NCBI GenBank assembly: GCA_943356675.1
Contig: CALRFQ010000002.1
Location: 1,433-65,432 of the forward strand
Source of the DNA: Candidatus Nomurabacteria bacterium
GTDB lineage: Bacteria > Patescibacteriota > Minisyncoccia > Phycocordibacterales > UBA9973
Direction of reading: 5' to 3'
Length of the DNA stretch: 64,000 nucleotides
Position numbers and translations under genes: made by a program. The notes below the pieces were generated by a model. It did no database searches, was not told the DNA's origin, and saw nothing but the letters and a program-made list of their open reading frames with translations. Below, in pieces: positions 1,363 to 46,395 of the stretch; position 1 is the stretch's first letter; every line of letters begins with the position of its first letter.

Positions 1363-2844
1363 ATGGCCTCACTTGAAGAACTAAGAAGCGTAAGACTTGA
1401 AAAATTAAATATTTTGAAAGAGTTTGGAATGAACCCGTATCCGGCAAATGTCGTGCGGGATTTTACTCTGCTTGAAGTCACAAATGATTTCAAGAAATTA
1501 GAAGCGGAAGGGAAGTCTATCTCTATTGTCGGACGCATTATGTCTATCCGCGGGCAGGGAGCTATAGTCTTCGTGTCACTCTTTGACGGCAGTGCGAAGT
1601 TCCAAGCTGTTTTCAAAAAGGATGAAATAGAAGAAAAGCTTTTTAAACTTTTCGCAGATGCAGTAGATATCGGTGACTTCATAGAAGTCACGGGCACACT
1701 CTTCGTCACAAAGGCAGAGCAGAATTCACTCCTTGTGAAGAGCTGGACAATGCTTACGAAAGCGCTACTTCCACTTCCAGATAAATGGCACGGTCTTCAG
1801 GATGTAGAAGAATCTTACCGCAAGCGATACCTCGATATCCTCATGGATGAAGAAGTGCGCAATCGTTTTATTACTCGCGCAAAGATTGTGAGTTATATTC
1901 GTAAATATTTAGATAATAAAAATTTCCTAGAAGTGGAAACTCCAATGCTTCAGAATCAAGCTGGTGGTGCTATGGCGAAAGTTTTCGACACGCATCACAA
2001 TGATTATGATTTGGATATGGTCCTACGCATTTCCATTGAGCTTGAGCACAAGATCCTCACAGTGGGTGGATATCCACGCATATACGAGATAGGCAAGAAC
2101 TTCCGCAACGAAGGCTCCGACCCTACTCACATCCAAGAGTTCACAATGCTTGAGTGGTACGCAGCGTATGAATCTCTCGAATCAAATATGGCTTGGACTG
2201 AAGAAATGCTAAGAGGAATAGCGAAAGATGTAATCGGCTCTGATACTTTCACAGTTTATGACAAGGAAGGAAATTCTACGGAAGTAGATTTCTCAAAAGA
2301 TTGGCCACGCGTGAAATTTGGTGATTTGATAAAAGAAAATGCAGGCCTCGATATGGCGACAGCAACTATAGATGAAATAAAAAGTAAATGTGTAGAGCTA
2401 GGCATGGATAAGGGAGAGATGGAGAAGACTGGCCGCGGAAACTTACTCGACTTTATTTTCAAAAAGTCTTCAAGAGTAAAAATTATAAATCCTACATACG
2501 TGCTCGATTACCCAGGAGATCTTAAGCCTCTAGCACAGCAGAACGAGGACGGCACAGCGAAGGTAGCTCAGCTCATCATAGCCGGTGCAGAATTGACGAA
2601 TCAATACGCAGAGCTTGTGAACCCGATAGTTCAGCGTGAACTTCTTGAAGCACAAAGCAAAGCAAAAGATGGAGGTGACGAAGAAGCGATGGAAGTGGAT
2701 GAAAGGTTCCTCACAGCCATGGAGCACGGCATGCCACCTATGACTGGTTTCGGTCTTGGTATCGACCGCTTAGTTGCCATAATGACAAATCAAAAGAATC
2801 TTCGTGATGTTATCTTCTTTCCGATAATGAGACCAAAAGAATAA
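1363..2844 (+). CDS. lysS: lysyl-tRNA synthetase, class II
   Basis: OB-fold anticodon-binding N-domain followed by class II core motifs (GKNFRNEGSDPTHIQEFTMLEWY, GMPPMTGFGLGIDRL). Start chosen at MASLEEL (1363), just after the greA stop, rather than the ORF-track 1345. Confidence 0.9.
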   Translation: MASLEELRSVRLEKLNILKEFGMNPYPANVVRDFTLLEVTNDFKKLEAEGKSISIVGRIMSIRGQGAIVFVSLFDGSAKFQAVFKKDEIEEKLFKLFADAVDIGDFIEVTGTLFVTKAEQNSLLVKSWTMLTKALLPLPDKWHGLQDVEESYRKRYLDILMDEEVRNRFITRAKIVSYIRKYLDNKNFLEVETPMLQNQAGGAMAKVFDTHHNDYDLDMVLRISIELEHKILTVGGYPRIYEIGKNFRNEGSDPTHIQEFTMLEWYAAYESLESNMAWTEEMLRGIAKDVIGSDTFTVYDKEGNSTEVDFSKDWPRVKFGDLIKENAGLDMATATIDEIKSKCVELGMDKGEMEKTGRGNLLDFIFKKSSRVKIINPTYVLDYPGDLKPLAQQNEDGTAKVAQLIIAGAELTNQYAELVNPIVQRELLEAQSKAKDGGDEEAMEVDERFLTAMEHGMPPMTGFGLGIDRLVAIMTNQKNLRDVIFFPIMRPKE

Positions 2845-15295: not shown

Positions 15296-15325
15296 AGCCA
15301 GCTTCTATCGAAGCTGGTATTTTTG
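15296..15325 (+). terminator. rho-independent terminator
   Basis: ccagcttc-tatc-gaagctgg hairpin followed by TATTTTT. Confidence 0.6.
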
Positions 15326-15382
15326 TATGTTGCTCAAACAACCTTTTTGTGTTATTTTATATATGCATTTAATGATGTGTAT

Positions 15383-15455
15383 GGCCCTATCGTCTAACGG
15401 TTAGGACATCGCCTTCTCAAGGCGGTAATCAGGGTTCGATTCCCTGTAGGGTCAC
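15383..15455 (+). tRNA. tRNA-Glu (anticodon CUC)
   Basis: Hand-folded cloverleaf: acceptor GGCCCTA/TAGGGTC, D-arm GTCT/GGAC, anticodon stem TCGCC/GGCGG with loop TTCTCAA, T-arm CAGGG-TTCGATT-CCCTG, and discriminator A. No CCA is encoded. Confidence 0.85.
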
Positions 15456-15645
15456 AAATTTTTGCGGAGCACAAAATTTGTGATTTTTAAGCATAATCGG
15501 AATTATGTTTAAAAAGAATCGAAAGCCGGAGTGCGACGGCACGAGGCGGGGTCGCGAGCTTTTCTACGAAGAAAAGACTTGTGACCGAAAGCGTACTCGC
15601 GGTTCCCACAATCAGAAAAGTACCCGCGGCCGTAGGGCGAGATAC

Positions 15646-15670
15646 TCCCTGTAGGGTCACAAATTTTTGC
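15646..15670 (+). repeat. exact 25-bp direct repeat of the tRNA-Glu 3' end (tccctgtagggtcacaaatttttgc), about 190 bp downstream of the tRNA
   Basis: The same 25-mer occurs at 15441-15465 (inside and just after the tRNA) and at 15646-15670. The intervening 15471-15645 is conspicuously GC-rich. Confidence 0.7.
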
Positions 15671-15726
15671 ATTTGACTCCTTAAGATATCCTTGGTAGCA
15701 TTTAAGTAAATTAATAATTTCTATTG

Positions 15727-15897
15727 TATGGGTGATACTGAATTCGACAGTCACGCCTTGGATAGGGTGCCTACTGTCAACACTCCAAATGATGCAACCG
15801 ATGATGAAGATGAATTAGATGATTTACCGGTAAATCAAATTAGAGAAGAAGATGTGCCTCATAATGATATTACAAGGCACGATGATGATGACGATTA
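15727..15897 (+). CDS. small acidic hypothetical protein (56 aa, D/E-rich)
   Basis: Short ORF (MGDTEFDSHALDRVPTVNTP...HDDDDD) below the ORF-track cutoff, followed by inverted repeats. Weak call. Confidence 0.2.
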
Positions 15898-17111: not shown

Positions 17112-17600
17112 ATGAAAAGATATATTATAGCTACAAGTATATTCGTACTCGTTTTAGGGATTGGCTTATTTGGCACTCCTAAAATTTCAAATGCATCATG
17201 GAGTATTAATCTAGGGTTTGGCGTAGGAGGTGGATCTTATGGTGGCTCATACAGTAATTACAACAATCCTTACTCATATGGTTCATATGGAAATAGTTAT
17301 TATGATCCATATTCTTACGGCAGTAGTTACTATGGTGGATCTGGATATTATGGAAGTAATTCAAATTCATATTACGGAAATAATTATGGAACTAGTTATG
17401 GTAATTATGGTAACTCTTATGGTGGTTATACTAATTCAAATAATTACGGAAATAATTACGGCACAAATTATGGTAACTCATATGGCAATTACTCAAATGC
17501 AAATAATTACAATCCTTACGGAGCCTATTCAAACTATTACGGATATTCATGCAGCGGTTGCAATGGTTCATACTACGGGCATCCTACAACAAACTATTAA
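17112..17600 (+). CDS. secreted low-complexity Gly/Tyr/Ser/Asn-rich protein
   Basis: N-terminal signal-peptide-like segment (MKRYIIATSIFVLVLGIGLFGTPKISNASWS) followed by about 130 aa of GSYG/NYG/SYY repeats. The overlapping ORF 17230-17643 is a repeat-driven frame artefact. Confidence 0.6.
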   Translation: MKRYIIATSIFVLVLGIGLFGTPKISNASWSINLGFGVGGGSYGGSYSNYNNPYSYGSYGNSYYDPYSYGSSYYGGSGYYGSNSNSYYGNNYGTSYGNYGNSYGGYTNSNNYGNNYGTNYGNSYGNYSNANNYNPYGAYSNYYGYSCSGCNGSYYGHPTTNY

Positions 17601-28902: not shown

Positions 28903-28990
28903 GTTTTATAAAGAGTGGTGGTAGAGAATTGGCTCCATGACCCCACAGCAACCCCGTTTACGGAAGGTGCTAATTCCAACCTTTATTAAC
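28903..28990 (+). promoter_or_regulatory. SAM-I-type riboswitch (SAM-I/IV-like variant without an obvious P4) in the metK leader
   Basis: Matches the SAM-I core: AGAGTGG...GGTAGAG...GGCTCC ATGA CCCC ACAGCAACC ... GGTGCTAATTCC. P1 pairs ATAAAG (about 28908) with CTTTAT (about 28981). It sits directly upstream of metK, with a GTGTATAAT -10 at about 28877-28885. Confidence 0.6.
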
Positions 28991-29052
28991 TTAAAGGAAA
29001 GATAATGTCATTATTTTTCCTTATTATTAGGAAATTTTTTTTGTTTAAATAT

Positions 29053-46265: not shown

Positions 46266-46395
46266 ATTTAATAGTTTATATTAAGAGTGGTGGTAGAGAA
46301 TTGGCTCAATGACCCCACAGCAACCTGCATTTGTAAGGTGCTAAATCCAACCAGACGCGAAAGCGTCAGGAAAGATAAGTCTTGCGTCTAGTCCA
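46266..46395 (+). promoter_or_regulatory. second SAM-I-like riboswitch copy (core near-identical to the metK leader) with its own TGCTATAAT promoter at about 46243-46251
   Basis: AGAGTGGTGGTAGAGAATTGGCTCAATGACCCCACAGCAACC...GGTGCTAAATCCAACC differs from the metK copy by 1 nt over 42 nt. It is followed by a GACGC-GAAA-GCGTC hairpin. I could not unambiguously pair the P1 3' strand. Confidence 0.45.

What the first reader, a model, noticed from the sequence alone, without database searches (positions are those of the whole stretch)
15383..15670. tRNA-Glu with a duplicated 25-bp 3' end enclosing a 190-bp GC-rich, highly structured insert
The exact 25-mer tccctgtagggtcacaaatttttgc (T-stem 3' half, acceptor 3' strand and trailer) occurs at the tRNA 3' end and again about 190 bp downstream. 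The enclosed 15471-15645 is much more GC-rich than its surroundings and full of helices (gcgac...gtcgc, cttttc-tacgaa-gaaaag, ttgtgaccg...cggttcccacaa).

Two readings:
(a) An attL/attR-like scar of a tRNA-targeting integrative element that has largely been deleted.
(b) A small structured ncRNA that co-opts a tRNA-like 3' end.

I could not fit it to tmRNA, RNase P, SRP or 6S RNA by eye.
Basis: seen in the sequence. Interest (0 to 1): 0.55.

Follow-up and report, generated by a model that had tools for sequence, protein, structure and literature searches.

The report
Small structured RNA element behind tRNA-Glu
The GC-rich insert behind this tRNA-Glu gene belongs to an apparently undescribed family of small folded RNA elements found in Patescibacteria (candidate phyla radiation), which sit just downstream of tRNA and other genes and close their fold with copied pieces of the neighbouring gene.

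Summary
tRNA-Glu(CTC) lies at 15383-15454. An exact 25-mer occurs at 15441-15465 and 15646-15670, enclosing 180 nt whose right-hand 126 nt are 59% GC in a 38% GC window.

The insert is neither a random deletion scar nor a degenerate tRNA. Positions 15521-15586 are a 66-nt two-hairpin core. The same core turned up in 2 Saccharibacteria genomes and about 23 metagenome contigs.

- It is always co-oriented with the upstream gene. 19 of 35 copies lie behind a same-strand tRNA of 11 amino-acid types, and others lie 10-46 nt after an ORF stop such as rplK.
- Hairpin P2 covaries strongly and keeps an invariant G·U pair, so the fold is strand-specific.
- In tRNA-linked copies the 5' flank is antisense to the tRNA's T-loop and 3' part. 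The 3' flank is a 15-27 nt sense copy of that part. Together they form a closing stem.

There was no Rfam, phage, plasmid, IMG/VR or literature match, and no recombinase gene nearby.

Best reading: a small insertion-type structured RNA module with host-derived arms, co-transcribed with its host gene. How it inserts and what it does are inferred, not shown.

The parts
15383..15454 (+). tRNA-Glu (anticodon CTC), intact and canonical. It is the host gene of the element.
   Evidence: ARAGORN; Rfam RF00005 at 61.8 bits, E = 5.8e-11.
15441..15465 (+). Direct repeat copy 1 (DR1): T-stem 3' strand, acceptor 3' strand, discriminator and 11 nt of trailer.
   Evidence: the repeat finder family D1, 100% identity.
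15452..15488 (+). Terminator-like hairpin. tcacaaatttttgc (end of the tRNA plus trailer) pairs with gcacaaaatttgtga (15469-15483, antisense copy) and is followed by TTTTT. The antisense strand can alternatively pair with DR2 (15657-15670).
   Evidence: Read directly from the sequence. The MFE fold pairs 15469-15483 with 15656-15670. The hairpin is conserved in L021.
15489..15510 (+). AT-rich hairpin aagcataat-cgga-attatgttt. It is shared with relative L021, where the changes are G-U to A-U in the stem and one base in the loop.
15516..15523 (+). 5' arm GAATCGAA. This is the exact antisense of the tRNA-Glu T-loop plus the first T-stem base (TTCGATTC, 15435-15442). GAAUC pairs with GGUUC (15601-15605) to form closing stem P0.
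   Evidence: Sequence; MFE of 15511-15610. The same rule holds in L022, L023, L029, L031, L036, L038, L042, L027 and L047.
15521..15586 (+). Conserved 66-nt core (model R1). It comprises junction GAAA, hairpin P1 (15525-15547: GCC-GGA-GUGC-GACG-GCAC-GA-GGC), linker GG, and hairpin P2 (15550-15586, with a bulged A and a conserved G·U pair).
   Evidence: cmsearch 88.9 bits, E = 1.9e-22, the only copy in the window. Covariation statistics.
15587..15602 (+). 3' extension GAAAGCGTACTCGCGG of the 'long form', shared with L021 and L022 and displaced in L043. CGUACUCGCGG is complementary to the 5' strand of P1 (CCGGAGUGCG). This gives either a terminal-inverted-repeat-like feature or an alternative fold.
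   Evidence: The centroid structure uses this pairing.
15603..15607 (+). TTCCC, the start of the original 3' arm (a copy of tRNA 15440-15444). It is cut off from the rest of the arm by a later 42-nt insertion.
   Evidence: Homology with L021 ends at 15607. In L022 the tRNA copy follows CGCGG directly.
15608..15649 (+). Secondary 42-nt insertion or duplication (acaatcag...gagatactccc). It contains a second, degenerate extension-like motif (GAAAAGTACCCGCGG) and a degenerate tRNA-end copy (CCGTAGGG). Removing it restores a 26-nt copy of tRNA 15440-15465.
   Evidence: Direct reading of the sequence and comparison with L021, L022 and L043. This is an inference.
15646..15670 (+). Direct repeat copy 2 (DR2), the sense copy of the tRNA 3' part plus trailer. 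It is the 3' arm of the element.

Best explanation
The insert is one member, and the only one in this window, of a previously uncatalogued family of small structured RNA elements of Patescibacteria (CPR).

Each member has a conserved core of about 66 nt. The core has two hairpins, P1 and P2, joined at a three-way junction. The third helix, P0, is not part of the conserved sequence. It is built from the host locus: a 5' arm antisense to the 3' part of the gene just upstream, and a 3' arm that is a sense copy of that part.

In this window the host is tRNA-Glu.
- The 5' arm is the antisense of its T-loop.

The element lies on the same strand as its host gene, within about 100 nt of the gene's end. 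I infer that it is made as RNA by read-through from the host gene.

Most likely history (inferred): the module arrived by an insertion event that duplicated the target, giving variable repeats of 15-33 nt that regenerate the target and allow tandem re-insertion. This left the tRNA intact. The module then persisted under selection for its RNA fold.

Shown: family membership, the fold, its strand specificity, the co-orientation and the host-derived arms.

Inferred: transcription, the insertion mechanism and any function. A plausible function is a stable 3'-end cap or processing signal.
For: 1. Family. A 22-mer from the insert hit two Saccharibacteria MAGs. A 21-mer hit 25 metagenome contigs, about 23 of them genuine. 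Model R1 scores the window copy at 88.9 bits and finds 35 copies in the fetched loci, up to 5 in 12 kb.

2. Fold. 97% of cells are paired. Ten P2 pairs show changes on both sides, and 0 of 500 shuffles reach the observed values. Slid controls pair at 33-49%. P1 variants are compensatory: GCC/GGC changes to GGC/GCC, ACC/GGU or GAC/GUC, and GUGC/GCAC changes to GGCU/AGCC. A G·U pair is invariant in 20 of 20 sequences, so the fold is specific to this strand.

3. Position. 19 of 35 copies lie 30-250 nt behind a same-strand tRNA. None has an opposite-strand tRNA as its nearest upstream tRNA. At least 5 lie 10-46 nt after a same-strand ORF stop.

4. Arms. Direct repeats of the tRNA 3' part flank the element at Glu, Gln, Leu, Val, His and a second Glu locus. 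The 5' arm is antisense across the left boundary of the repeat. The contiguous P0 helix averages 5.35 bp, against 3.28 +/- 0.24 bp in 2000 permutations of the arms. In L023 the 5' arm and the repeat changed together (G-C to A-U) relative to the tRNA. In L025 C-to-T changes keep G·U pairs.

5. Insertion-like behaviour. The element is absent behind tRNA-Glu in relatives L014 and L020. It is present but in a rearranged context in the close relative L021, which is 87-88% identical at the nucleotide level while the element itself is 92.7% identical. Tandem copies each carry their own repeat (L027, L030, L031, L038).

6. Not catalogued elsewhere. There was no match in Rfam, even at E <= 10, in phages or plasmids, in IMG/VR, or in the literature by sequence.
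Against: - No transcript data, so co-transcription is inferred from position and strand only. In several loci, including this one, a terminator-like hairpin lies between the tRNA and the core.
- No enzyme that could move the element was found next to any copy.
- The sequences between repeat copy 1 and the 5' arm are unrelated between loci. It is therefore unclear what the mobile unit is, and whether the repeats are true target-site duplications.
- Copies within one contig (L027) differ more from each other than copies at the same kind of locus in distant genomes do. The rplK-linked cores are about 95% identical although the L11 proteins are only 66% identical. This looks more like long-term purifying selection on a host function than like recent transposition.
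- P1 conservation is inflated because the search patterns lay inside P1.
- Duplications of tRNA 3' parts also occur in these genomes without the core (L040, L028).
Confidence: 0.55

Rival explanations
1. It is a host-encoded, non-mobile cis-acting 3'-end module. The three-way junction, co-transcribed with tRNAs and with highly expressed mRNAs such as rplK, would serve as a processing, stability or termination signal, or as a protein-binding site. The antisense arm would allow a switch between pairing with the end of the host gene and pairing with the downstream copy. New copies would arise only rarely, by local duplication.
For: - The element is conserved at the same kind of locus in distant lineages. 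The rplK-linked cores of L025/L027/L046 and of L039 are about 95% identical, while the L11 proteins are 65.6% identical, and the arms track each local rplK end.
- Compensatory changes keep P0 paired (L023, L025).
- The element is strictly co-oriented and lies between the stop codon and a canonical terminator.
- The window-L021 differences fall mostly in loops.
- Two near-isoenergetic folds exist in long-form members.
Against: - Density varies enormously, from 1 per 64 kb in the window to 5 per 12 kb in L027.
- The element is absent behind tRNA-Glu in relatives.
- Tandem stacks and nested partial copies look like repeated insertion.
- Perfect host-derived arms of 15-27 nt need a copying mechanism. 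Point mutation would not produce them.
Confidence: 0.25
2. It is a trans-acting small RNA that mimics the acceptor/T-arm minihelix of the neighbouring tRNA. It would act as a decoy or substrate for RNase P, RNase Z, the CCA-adding enzyme or a tRNA-targeting toxin, with the core replacing the rest of the tRNA body.
For: - In tRNA-linked members P0 reproduces the T-stem and part of the acceptor stem of the adjacent tRNA (L023, L047).
- In L022 and L038 the copied end carries CCA.
Against: - Members behind rplK and other ORFs have arms with no resemblance to tRNA.
- In the window the copy ends in ACAAA rather than CCA.
- The copies include gene trailer sequence, so they derive from DNA or precursor, not from mature tRNA.
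Confidence: 0.08
3. It is the attL/attR scar of a tRNA-integrating prophage or integrative element that has been almost completely deleted.
For: - The direct repeat runs from the T-loop/T-stem to beyond the tRNA 3' end, which is the classical extent of att identity at tRNA genes (established knowledge).
- Contigs of this species often break inside the tRNA.
- The locus is rearranged in relatives.
Against: - The same core with the same small total size recurs at more than 20 unrelated loci, including non-tRNA loci.
- No integrase gene or fragment lies within about 10 kb.
- Nothing matches in INPHARED, PLSDB or IMG/VR.
- The sequence next to the right-hand repeat is not the inverted core-type site expected of a tyrosine-recombinase att site (direct reading).
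Confidence: 0.05
4. It is a degenerate second tRNA-Glu gene, that is, a decayed tandem duplication.
For: - The 3' 25 nt are identical to the end of the tRNA.
- Partial tRNA copies do occur in these genomes (L014, L040).
Against: - Neither ARAGORN nor the Rfam tRNA model sees anything in 15456-15670, even at E <= 10.
- The interior is the R1 core, shared with loci of other tRNAs and of rplK.
Confidence: 0.02

Closest known systems
REP/BIME, ERIC, Correia/RUP-type small repetitive intergenic elements of bacteria
   Same: All are short (under 200 nt), lack an ORF and are repeated. They sit in transcribed 3' regions between a stop codon and a terminator, fold as RNA, and vary greatly in copy number between lineages.
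   Different: The known elements carry their own fixed ends or inverted repeats and occur in both orientations. Here only the core is conserved, the closing stem is copied from the host gene (antisense plus sense), and all copies are co-oriented with the host gene. The family appears confined to Patescibacteria.
tRNA-gene att sites of integrative elements (tyrosine-integrase attL/attR, T-loop sublocation) and integrase-less derivatives (CIMEs)
   Same: A direct repeat starts in the T-loop or T-stem and runs past the tRNA 3' end. The tRNA is left intact. The target is regenerated, so tandem arrays can form.
   Different: The enclosed DNA is only about 100-200 nt. No integrase gene is present and there is no phage or ICE homology. 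The same core also sits at non-tRNA sites, and an antisense arm lies inside the element.
Folded single-strand recombination substrates (integron attC x attI; CTX-phi attP with XerCD)
   Same: The arrangement X - spacer - X' - variable structure - X is what results when a circular single strand, folded through X':X, exchanges one strand with a target X. Like attC sites, the elements follow genes in a fixed orientation.
   Different: The elements lack the attC R''/R' core sites and any dif-like site. X differs at every locus. No IntI or Xer dependence has been shown. The structured centre is conserved here, whereas it is variable in attC.
Site-specific retroelements co-transcribed with their host gene (R2 in 28S rDNA; group II intron EBS-IBS pairing)
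   Same: They depend on read-through transcription from a highly expressed host gene. An internal segment is complementary to the host sequence just upstream of the insertion point. Target duplications vary in length.
   Different: The element has no ORF and no reverse transcriptase, and no HDV-like or group II ribozyme signature was detected by Rfam. At about 100 nt it is one to two orders of magnitude smaller.

Membership tests
tRNA (RF00005), for 15383-15454 | Cloverleaf scoring above the Rfam gathering threshold, with an anticodon assigned. | tested here: met
   61.8 bits against a threshold of 29. ARAGORN calls Glu-CTC.
tRNA / pseudo-tRNA, for the insert 15456-15670 | Any cloverleaf-like match. 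| tested here: not met
   No ARAGORN call, and no RF00005 match at E <= 10.
tmRNA, RNase P RNA, SRP RNA, 6S RNA, known self-cleaving ribozymes, HEARO/OMEGA RNAs, group I/II introns (all Rfam 15 families) | A covariance-model match. | tested here: not met
   Nothing beyond chance hits at E <= 10 on 15300-15760. Nothing consistent over 16 other family loci.
R1 element family (defined here) | The 66-nt core: a 4-nt junction, P1 with a GGA/GA internal loop, a GG linker, and P2 with GGUCG...YGUGAC at its base, a bulged A and a conserved G·U pair. | tested here: met
   88.9 bits, E = 1.9e-22. The window sequence was one of the 20 used to build the model, so the score is partly circular. The independent evidence is the exact 21- and 22-mer hits and the alignment.
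R1 element family | Lies on the same strand as an upstream gene and within a few hundred nt downstream of its 3' end. | tested here: met
   The core starts 66 nt after tRNA-Glu on the same strand.
R1 element family | Host-derived arms: the 5' arm is antisense to the host gene's 3' part and the 3' arm is a sense copy of it. | tested here: met
   GAATCGAA (15516-15523) is the antisense of T-loop TTCGATTC. The copy of the tRNA end lies at 15603-15607 plus 15646-15670.
Integrative element / prophage att scar | A direct repeat covering the 3' part of a tRNA gene. | tested here: met
   A 25-nt exact repeat.
Integrative element / prophage att scar | An integrase gene or remnant, or element cargo, between or next to the repeats. 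| tested here: not met
   The six-frame translation shows no recombinase-like ORF. The neighbours are a PhoH/PIN protein, a hypothetical protein, PRPP synthetase and RmuC.
Integrative element / prophage att scar | Homology of the enclosed DNA to phage, plasmid or viral sequences. | tested here: not met
   No match.
MITE (DNA-transposon derivative) | Element-borne terminal inverted repeats, a target duplication of fixed length, and insertion in either orientation. | tested here: not met
   The long form has an imperfect 11-nt inverted repeat (CCGGAGTGCG / CGTACTCGCGG). However, the repeats vary from 15 to 33 nt, and orientation is 19:0 with respect to the host tRNA.
Integron attC site | R''(RYYYAAC) ... 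R'(GTTRRRY) core sites bounding an imperfect palindrome. | tested here: not met
   Direct reading of the element boundaries in 20 members shows no such motifs.
IS200/IS605 omega-RNA or IS110 bridge RNA | An adjacent tnpB/iscB or DEDD recombinase gene. | tested here: not met
   No such ORF lies next to the window copy. ORFs next to the copies in L030 and L043 are housekeeping genes. Only a subset of loci was inspected.

The most novel reading that the evidence does not exclude
The element is a self-contained, ORF-less, roughly 100-nt 'programmable' insertion element.
- Its 5' arm would act as a guide that base-pairs with the target strand across the insertion point. In the tRNA-linked members the arm spans the left boundary of the duplication.
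- The conserved three-way-junction core would be the catalytic or protein-recruiting scaffold.
- Insertion would duplicate the target, so the host gene survives and the site is regenerated.

This would be a new class of RNA-guided or fold-guided mobile element that uses highly expressed genes, chiefly tRNAs, as safe havens and as its source of transcription.
Probability: 0.2. Interest if true: 0.9.

Novelty: new variant of a known kind. Interest (0 to 1): 0.7.

Why it matters
Patescibacteria make up a large share of bacterial diversity, yet almost nothing is known about their non-coding RNAs. This finding points to a widespread, strongly conserved structured RNA element that is absent from Rfam. 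It marks the 3' ends of tRNA genes and of some protein genes.

The architecture is unusual: a conserved core closed by sense and antisense copies of the host gene's own end.

- If the element is mobile, it is a very small element whose target-matching arms suggest guide-like target choice. It would also explain tRNA-end duplications, tandem stacks and rearrangements at tRNA loci in these tiny genomes.
- If it is a host device, it would be a new kind of 3'-end signal.

Either way, it offers practical benefits:
- It supplies a covariance model for annotating these genomes.
- It removes spurious ORF calls, such as the 61-aa minus-strand 'gene' over the insert.
- It may explain why assemblies of these genomes break at tRNA genes.

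Tried and rejected
- **Rfam.** Searches at gathering and at permissive thresholds on the window and on 16 family loci found only tRNAs and two SAM riboswitches.
- **Coding potential.** The six-frame translation of the insert shows nothing protein-like, and the 61- and 81-aa minus-strand ORFs have no support.
- **Public sequence collections.** BLASTN against INPHARED phages and PLSDB plasmids gave nothing. Three IMG/VR pattern scans, including a degenerate P1 pattern, gave nothing.
- **Literature.** Searches by topic and by sequence string found nothing relevant.
- **Same-species contigs.** L001-L013 are 100% identical across the locus, so they say nothing about gain or loss.
- **Homology to L020.** I tested the GC-rich sequence behind the inverted tRNA-Glu of L020. 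The alignment is unconvincing and R1 does not hit it.
- **Autonomous version.** I looked for one between oppositely oriented cores in L043 and L030 and found only a HAD-like gene and tRNAs.
- **By-eye comparisons** (recalled from memory, not tested beyond Rfam): hammerhead, HDV-like, twister, K-turn, SRP Alu domain, RNase P P4, group II domain V, and the 23S L11-binding three-way junction. The last shares a GAAAGCGUA 9-mer and an AGCAG loop with the element. None fits the conserved positions.
- **Mature-tRNA-templated (retroviral PBS-like or retroplasmid-like) origin of the arms.** I consider this unlikely, because the copies include gene trailer sequence instead of CCA.
- **Taxonomy.** The cluster look-up of neighbouring proteins added little.

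Full report
**1. The observation**

The window encodes a single tRNA, tRNA-Glu(CTC), at 15383-15454/5 (ARAGORN; Rfam 61.8 bits). The 25-mer TCCCTGTAGGGTCACAAATTTTTGC occurs exactly twice in the window, at 15441-15465 and 15646-15670.

The 180 nt between the copies are not uniform. The first 54 nt are 26% GC. The last 126 nt are 58.7% GC, in a window that averages 38.0%. The region folds better than shuffled controls on either strand (z about -4).

The surrounding genes are ordinary chromosomal genes: enolase, pyruvate kinase, dihydroorotate dehydrogenase, a PIN-PhoH protein, a 151-aa hypothetical protein, a 56-aa acidic protein, PRPP synthetase and RmuC. PRPP synthetase homologues place the organism in Patescibacteria. 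A Saccharibacteria MAG, L021, is 87-88% identical at the DNA level over conserved genes.

**2. What the insert contains**

A 22-mer from the GC-rich part hit two Saccharibacteria MAGs in the species-representative genome set. A 21-mer hit 25 metagenome contigs. Two of those (L024, L032) look like chance hits in GC-rich DNA.

All genuine hits share a core of about 66 nt:
- a 4-nt junction, often GAAA;
- hairpin P1, GCC-GGA-GUGC-GACG-GCAC-GA-GGC;
- a GG linker;
- a long hairpin P2, with GGUCGCG...YGUGACC at its base, a bulged A and a variable top.

On 20 sequences the proposed structure pairs 97% of cells. Ten P2 pairs change on both sides, and no shuffle out of 500 reaches the observed values. 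Slid controls pair at only 33-49%. One G·U pair is invariant in 20 of 20 sequences, which ties the fold to this strand, as RNA or as single-stranded DNA.

P1 is invariant in that set only because the search patterns lay inside it. Copies found later with the covariance model show compensatory P1 variants: GCC/GGC changes to GGC/GCC, ACC/GGU or GAC/GUC, GUGC/GCAC changes to GGCU/AGCC, and some copies have much longer inner hairpins. The GGA/GA internal loop and the GG linker are kept.

The window has exactly one copy, at 15521-15586 (88.9 bits). Other contigs have several: five in the 12 kb of L027, four in L030 and three in L044.

**3. Where the copies sit**

Of the 35 model hits, 19 lie 30-250 nt downstream of a same-strand tRNA. 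The tRNAs are Glu, Gln, Leu, Lys-CTT, Lys-TTT, Val-TAC, Val-GAC, Ala, Ser, His and Cys. For none of the 35 hits is an opposite-strand tRNA the nearest upstream tRNA. At least five further hits lie 10-46 nt after a same-strand ORF stop, including the ribosomal protein L11 gene (rplK) in two lineages. The element is therefore a co-oriented feature of gene 3' ends.

**4. The arms: what the 25-mer repeat really is**

In tRNA-linked members the core is directly followed by a sense copy of the host tRNA's 3' part. The copy starts inside the T-loop (positions 57-59) and runs through the T-stem 3' strand, the acceptor 3' strand and some trailer. It is 15-27 nt long, sometimes with one mismatch (L022, L023, L029, L038, L042, L027).

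The core is directly preceded by a segment antisense to the T-loop and T-stem 3' strand, and sometimes also to the acceptor strand. This segment regularly ends in GAA, opposite the T-loop's TTC, so it spans the left boundary of the repeat.

The two arms pair to form a closing helix, P0, and the whole RNA becomes a three-way junction. Across 31 copies the contiguous helix averages 5.35 bp, against 3.28 +/- 0.24 bp when the arms are permuted between copies.

P0 is under selection at the RNA level:
- In L023 the 5' arm has A and the repeat has U at the position where the tRNA has C. This is a double change from G-C to A-U.
- In L025 the degenerate copy of the rplK end differs from the gene by C-to-T changes that keep G·U pairs.

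Members behind ORFs use the last 10-15 nt of the coding sequence in the same way, often placing the stop codon in the loop of a perfect hairpin (L039, L027-7369).

A second arrangement is seen at tRNA-Lys and at one tRNA-Val. There the 5' arm (tgtgcga) pairs with the very end of the tRNA, through a long hairpin that encloses the terminator.

**5. The window copy read with these rules**

- GAATCGAA (15516-15523) is the exact antisense of the tRNA-Glu T-loop TTCGATTC (15435-15442).
- The core follows at 15521-15586.
- Next comes a 16-nt extension, GAAAGCGTACTCGCGG, shared with L021 and L022 and displaced in L043.
- Then comes TTCCC, the start of the tRNA copy.

Homology with the close relative L021 ends exactly there, at 15607. 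In L022 the tRNA copy follows CGCGG without interruption. Removing 15608-15649 (42 nt) restores a 26-nt copy of tRNA 15440-15465. I therefore read those 42 nt as a later partial re-duplication. They contain a second, degenerate extension-like motif and a degenerate copy of the tRNA end.

Upstream, the tRNA trailer forms a terminator-like hairpin with an antisense copy (15469-15483) followed by T5. That antisense copy can also pair with 15657-15670.

The extension is complementary to the 5' strand of P1. This gives an alternative fold of similar energy: MFE -40.4 kcal/mol against a centroid of -36.5 kcal/mol. Seen as DNA, the same complementarity is an imperfect terminal inverted repeat.

**6. 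History**

The element is absent behind tRNA-Glu in L014 (PRPP synthetase 79% identical) and in L020 (70% identical).

It is present in L021 at 92.7% identity, with differences mostly in loops. There it lies in a rearranged neighbourhood and behind a different small conserved sequence. It therefore predates the split between the window genome and L021.

In L016 (98% identical) and in L020 the tRNA is inverted relative to the PRPP synthetase gene. Same-species contigs often end inside the tRNA. The locus is structurally unstable.

Tandem stacks occur, each unit with its own repeat: L027 at tRNA-Val, L030, and L031, where core b is flanked by the same tRNA segment on both sides. L038 has three copies of a tRNA-Glu end bracketing two different structured modules. 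Duplications of tRNA 3' parts also occur without this core (L040, L028).

**7. Interpretation**

The size, the recurrence at unrelated loci, the lack of any recombinase gene and the absence from phage, plasmid and viral collections argue against a scar of a large integrative element. ARAGORN and Rfam exclude a degenerate tRNA. No Rfam family fits, and no paper holds the sequence.

What remains is a new family of small structured elements. I favour an origin by insertion, for four reasons:
- host-derived arms of this length need a copying step;
- the repeats vary in length;
- the target is regenerated, so tandem arrays can form;
- copy number and presence or absence vary between lineages.

Formally, the arrangement X - spacer - X' - core - X is what a single strand exchange would give between a target X and a circular single strand folded through X':X. 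This is the geometry of integron attC and of CTX-phi. The antisense arm spanning the repeat boundary also resembles guide-target pairing in group II introns or in R2. None of these mechanisms is shown here.

Two points weigh against a purely selfish element. Copies at the same kind of locus in distant lineages are strongly conserved, and copies within one genome differ considerably from each other. A host function at 3' ends therefore remains a serious rival. The two views are compatible if the element was domesticated.

**8. Verdict**

The element is not catalogued and has an unusual architecture. The mechanism remains open.

Noticed in passing
window 28903-29008 (+) and 46275-46381 (+): Two SAM (S-box) riboswitch aptamers score above the Rfam gathering threshold (73.4 and 59.5 bits). 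This is notable in a Patescibacteria genome with reduced metabolism.
   Followed up: no
window 15487-15672 (-): A 61-aa minus-strand ORF lying entirely over the structured insert is called as a gene in public assemblies (L001, L004, L006, L008). It is almost certainly spurious.
   Followed up: partly
L014 4800-4865: In the relative that lacks the element, a degenerate copy of the 5' half of tRNA-Glu (ggccctatcgtctaac...ggacatcgccttc) sits immediately upstream of the intact tRNA-Glu. This is another partial tRNA duplication at the same locus.
   Followed up: no
L016 1-100; L020 151-223; L009-L013 contig ends: tRNA-Glu is inverted relative to the PRPP synthetase gene in two relatives. Many same-species contigs break inside the tRNA, which suggests population-level structural heterogeneity or repeat-induced assembly breaks.
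   Followed up: partly
L038 2187-2530: Three copies of a tRNA-Glu 3' end bracket two different modules. One is a GC-rich structured 'type B' module of about 130 nt (2230-2360) that also begins with an antisense T-loop segment (GAGAGTCGAA). The other is the R1 core. So there are further families with the same arm logic.
   Followed up: partly
L028 1150-1365 (-) and L040 1455-1560 (-): tRNA 3'-part direct repeats occur without the R1 core. tRNA-Leu(TAG) is followed by an AT-rich variant module that ends in GACC-AAGAAGCGAAGCG plus a copy of the tRNA end. tRNA-Ile has a plain 33-nt duplication of its T-arm and acceptor end, 48 nt downstream.
   Followed up: partly
L021 1062-1108 and L047 about 230-276: A conserved hairpin-like sequence of about 47 nt (GCYUUACGGGGYAAUGAA...CYCGAGAAGGCUCAC), with compensatory changes between the two loci, lies just upstream of the R1 element in place of a tRNA. 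It has no Rfam match and may be a miniature tRNA-derived or other small RNA.
   Followed up: partly
L040 (core at 1683-1748, minus strand) and L041 5000-5240: In two loci the element lies upstream of an intact tRNA (Ile, Asn). It is preceded by a 27-33 nt duplicate of the promoter-proximal 5' part of that tRNA. Here the arms resemble the anticodon stem rather than the T-arm.
   Followed up: partly
window 17112-17600 (+): A 162-aa predicted secreted protein made almost entirely of Gly/Tyr/Ser/Asn repeats (SYGGSY..., NNYG...), with no Pfam match.
   Followed up: no
L041 2204-3070 (+): A DDE (rve-type, IS481/IS3-like by eye) transposase ORF lies about 2 kb from one R1 copy. It is not adjacent to that copy and was not seen at other loci.
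   Followed up: no
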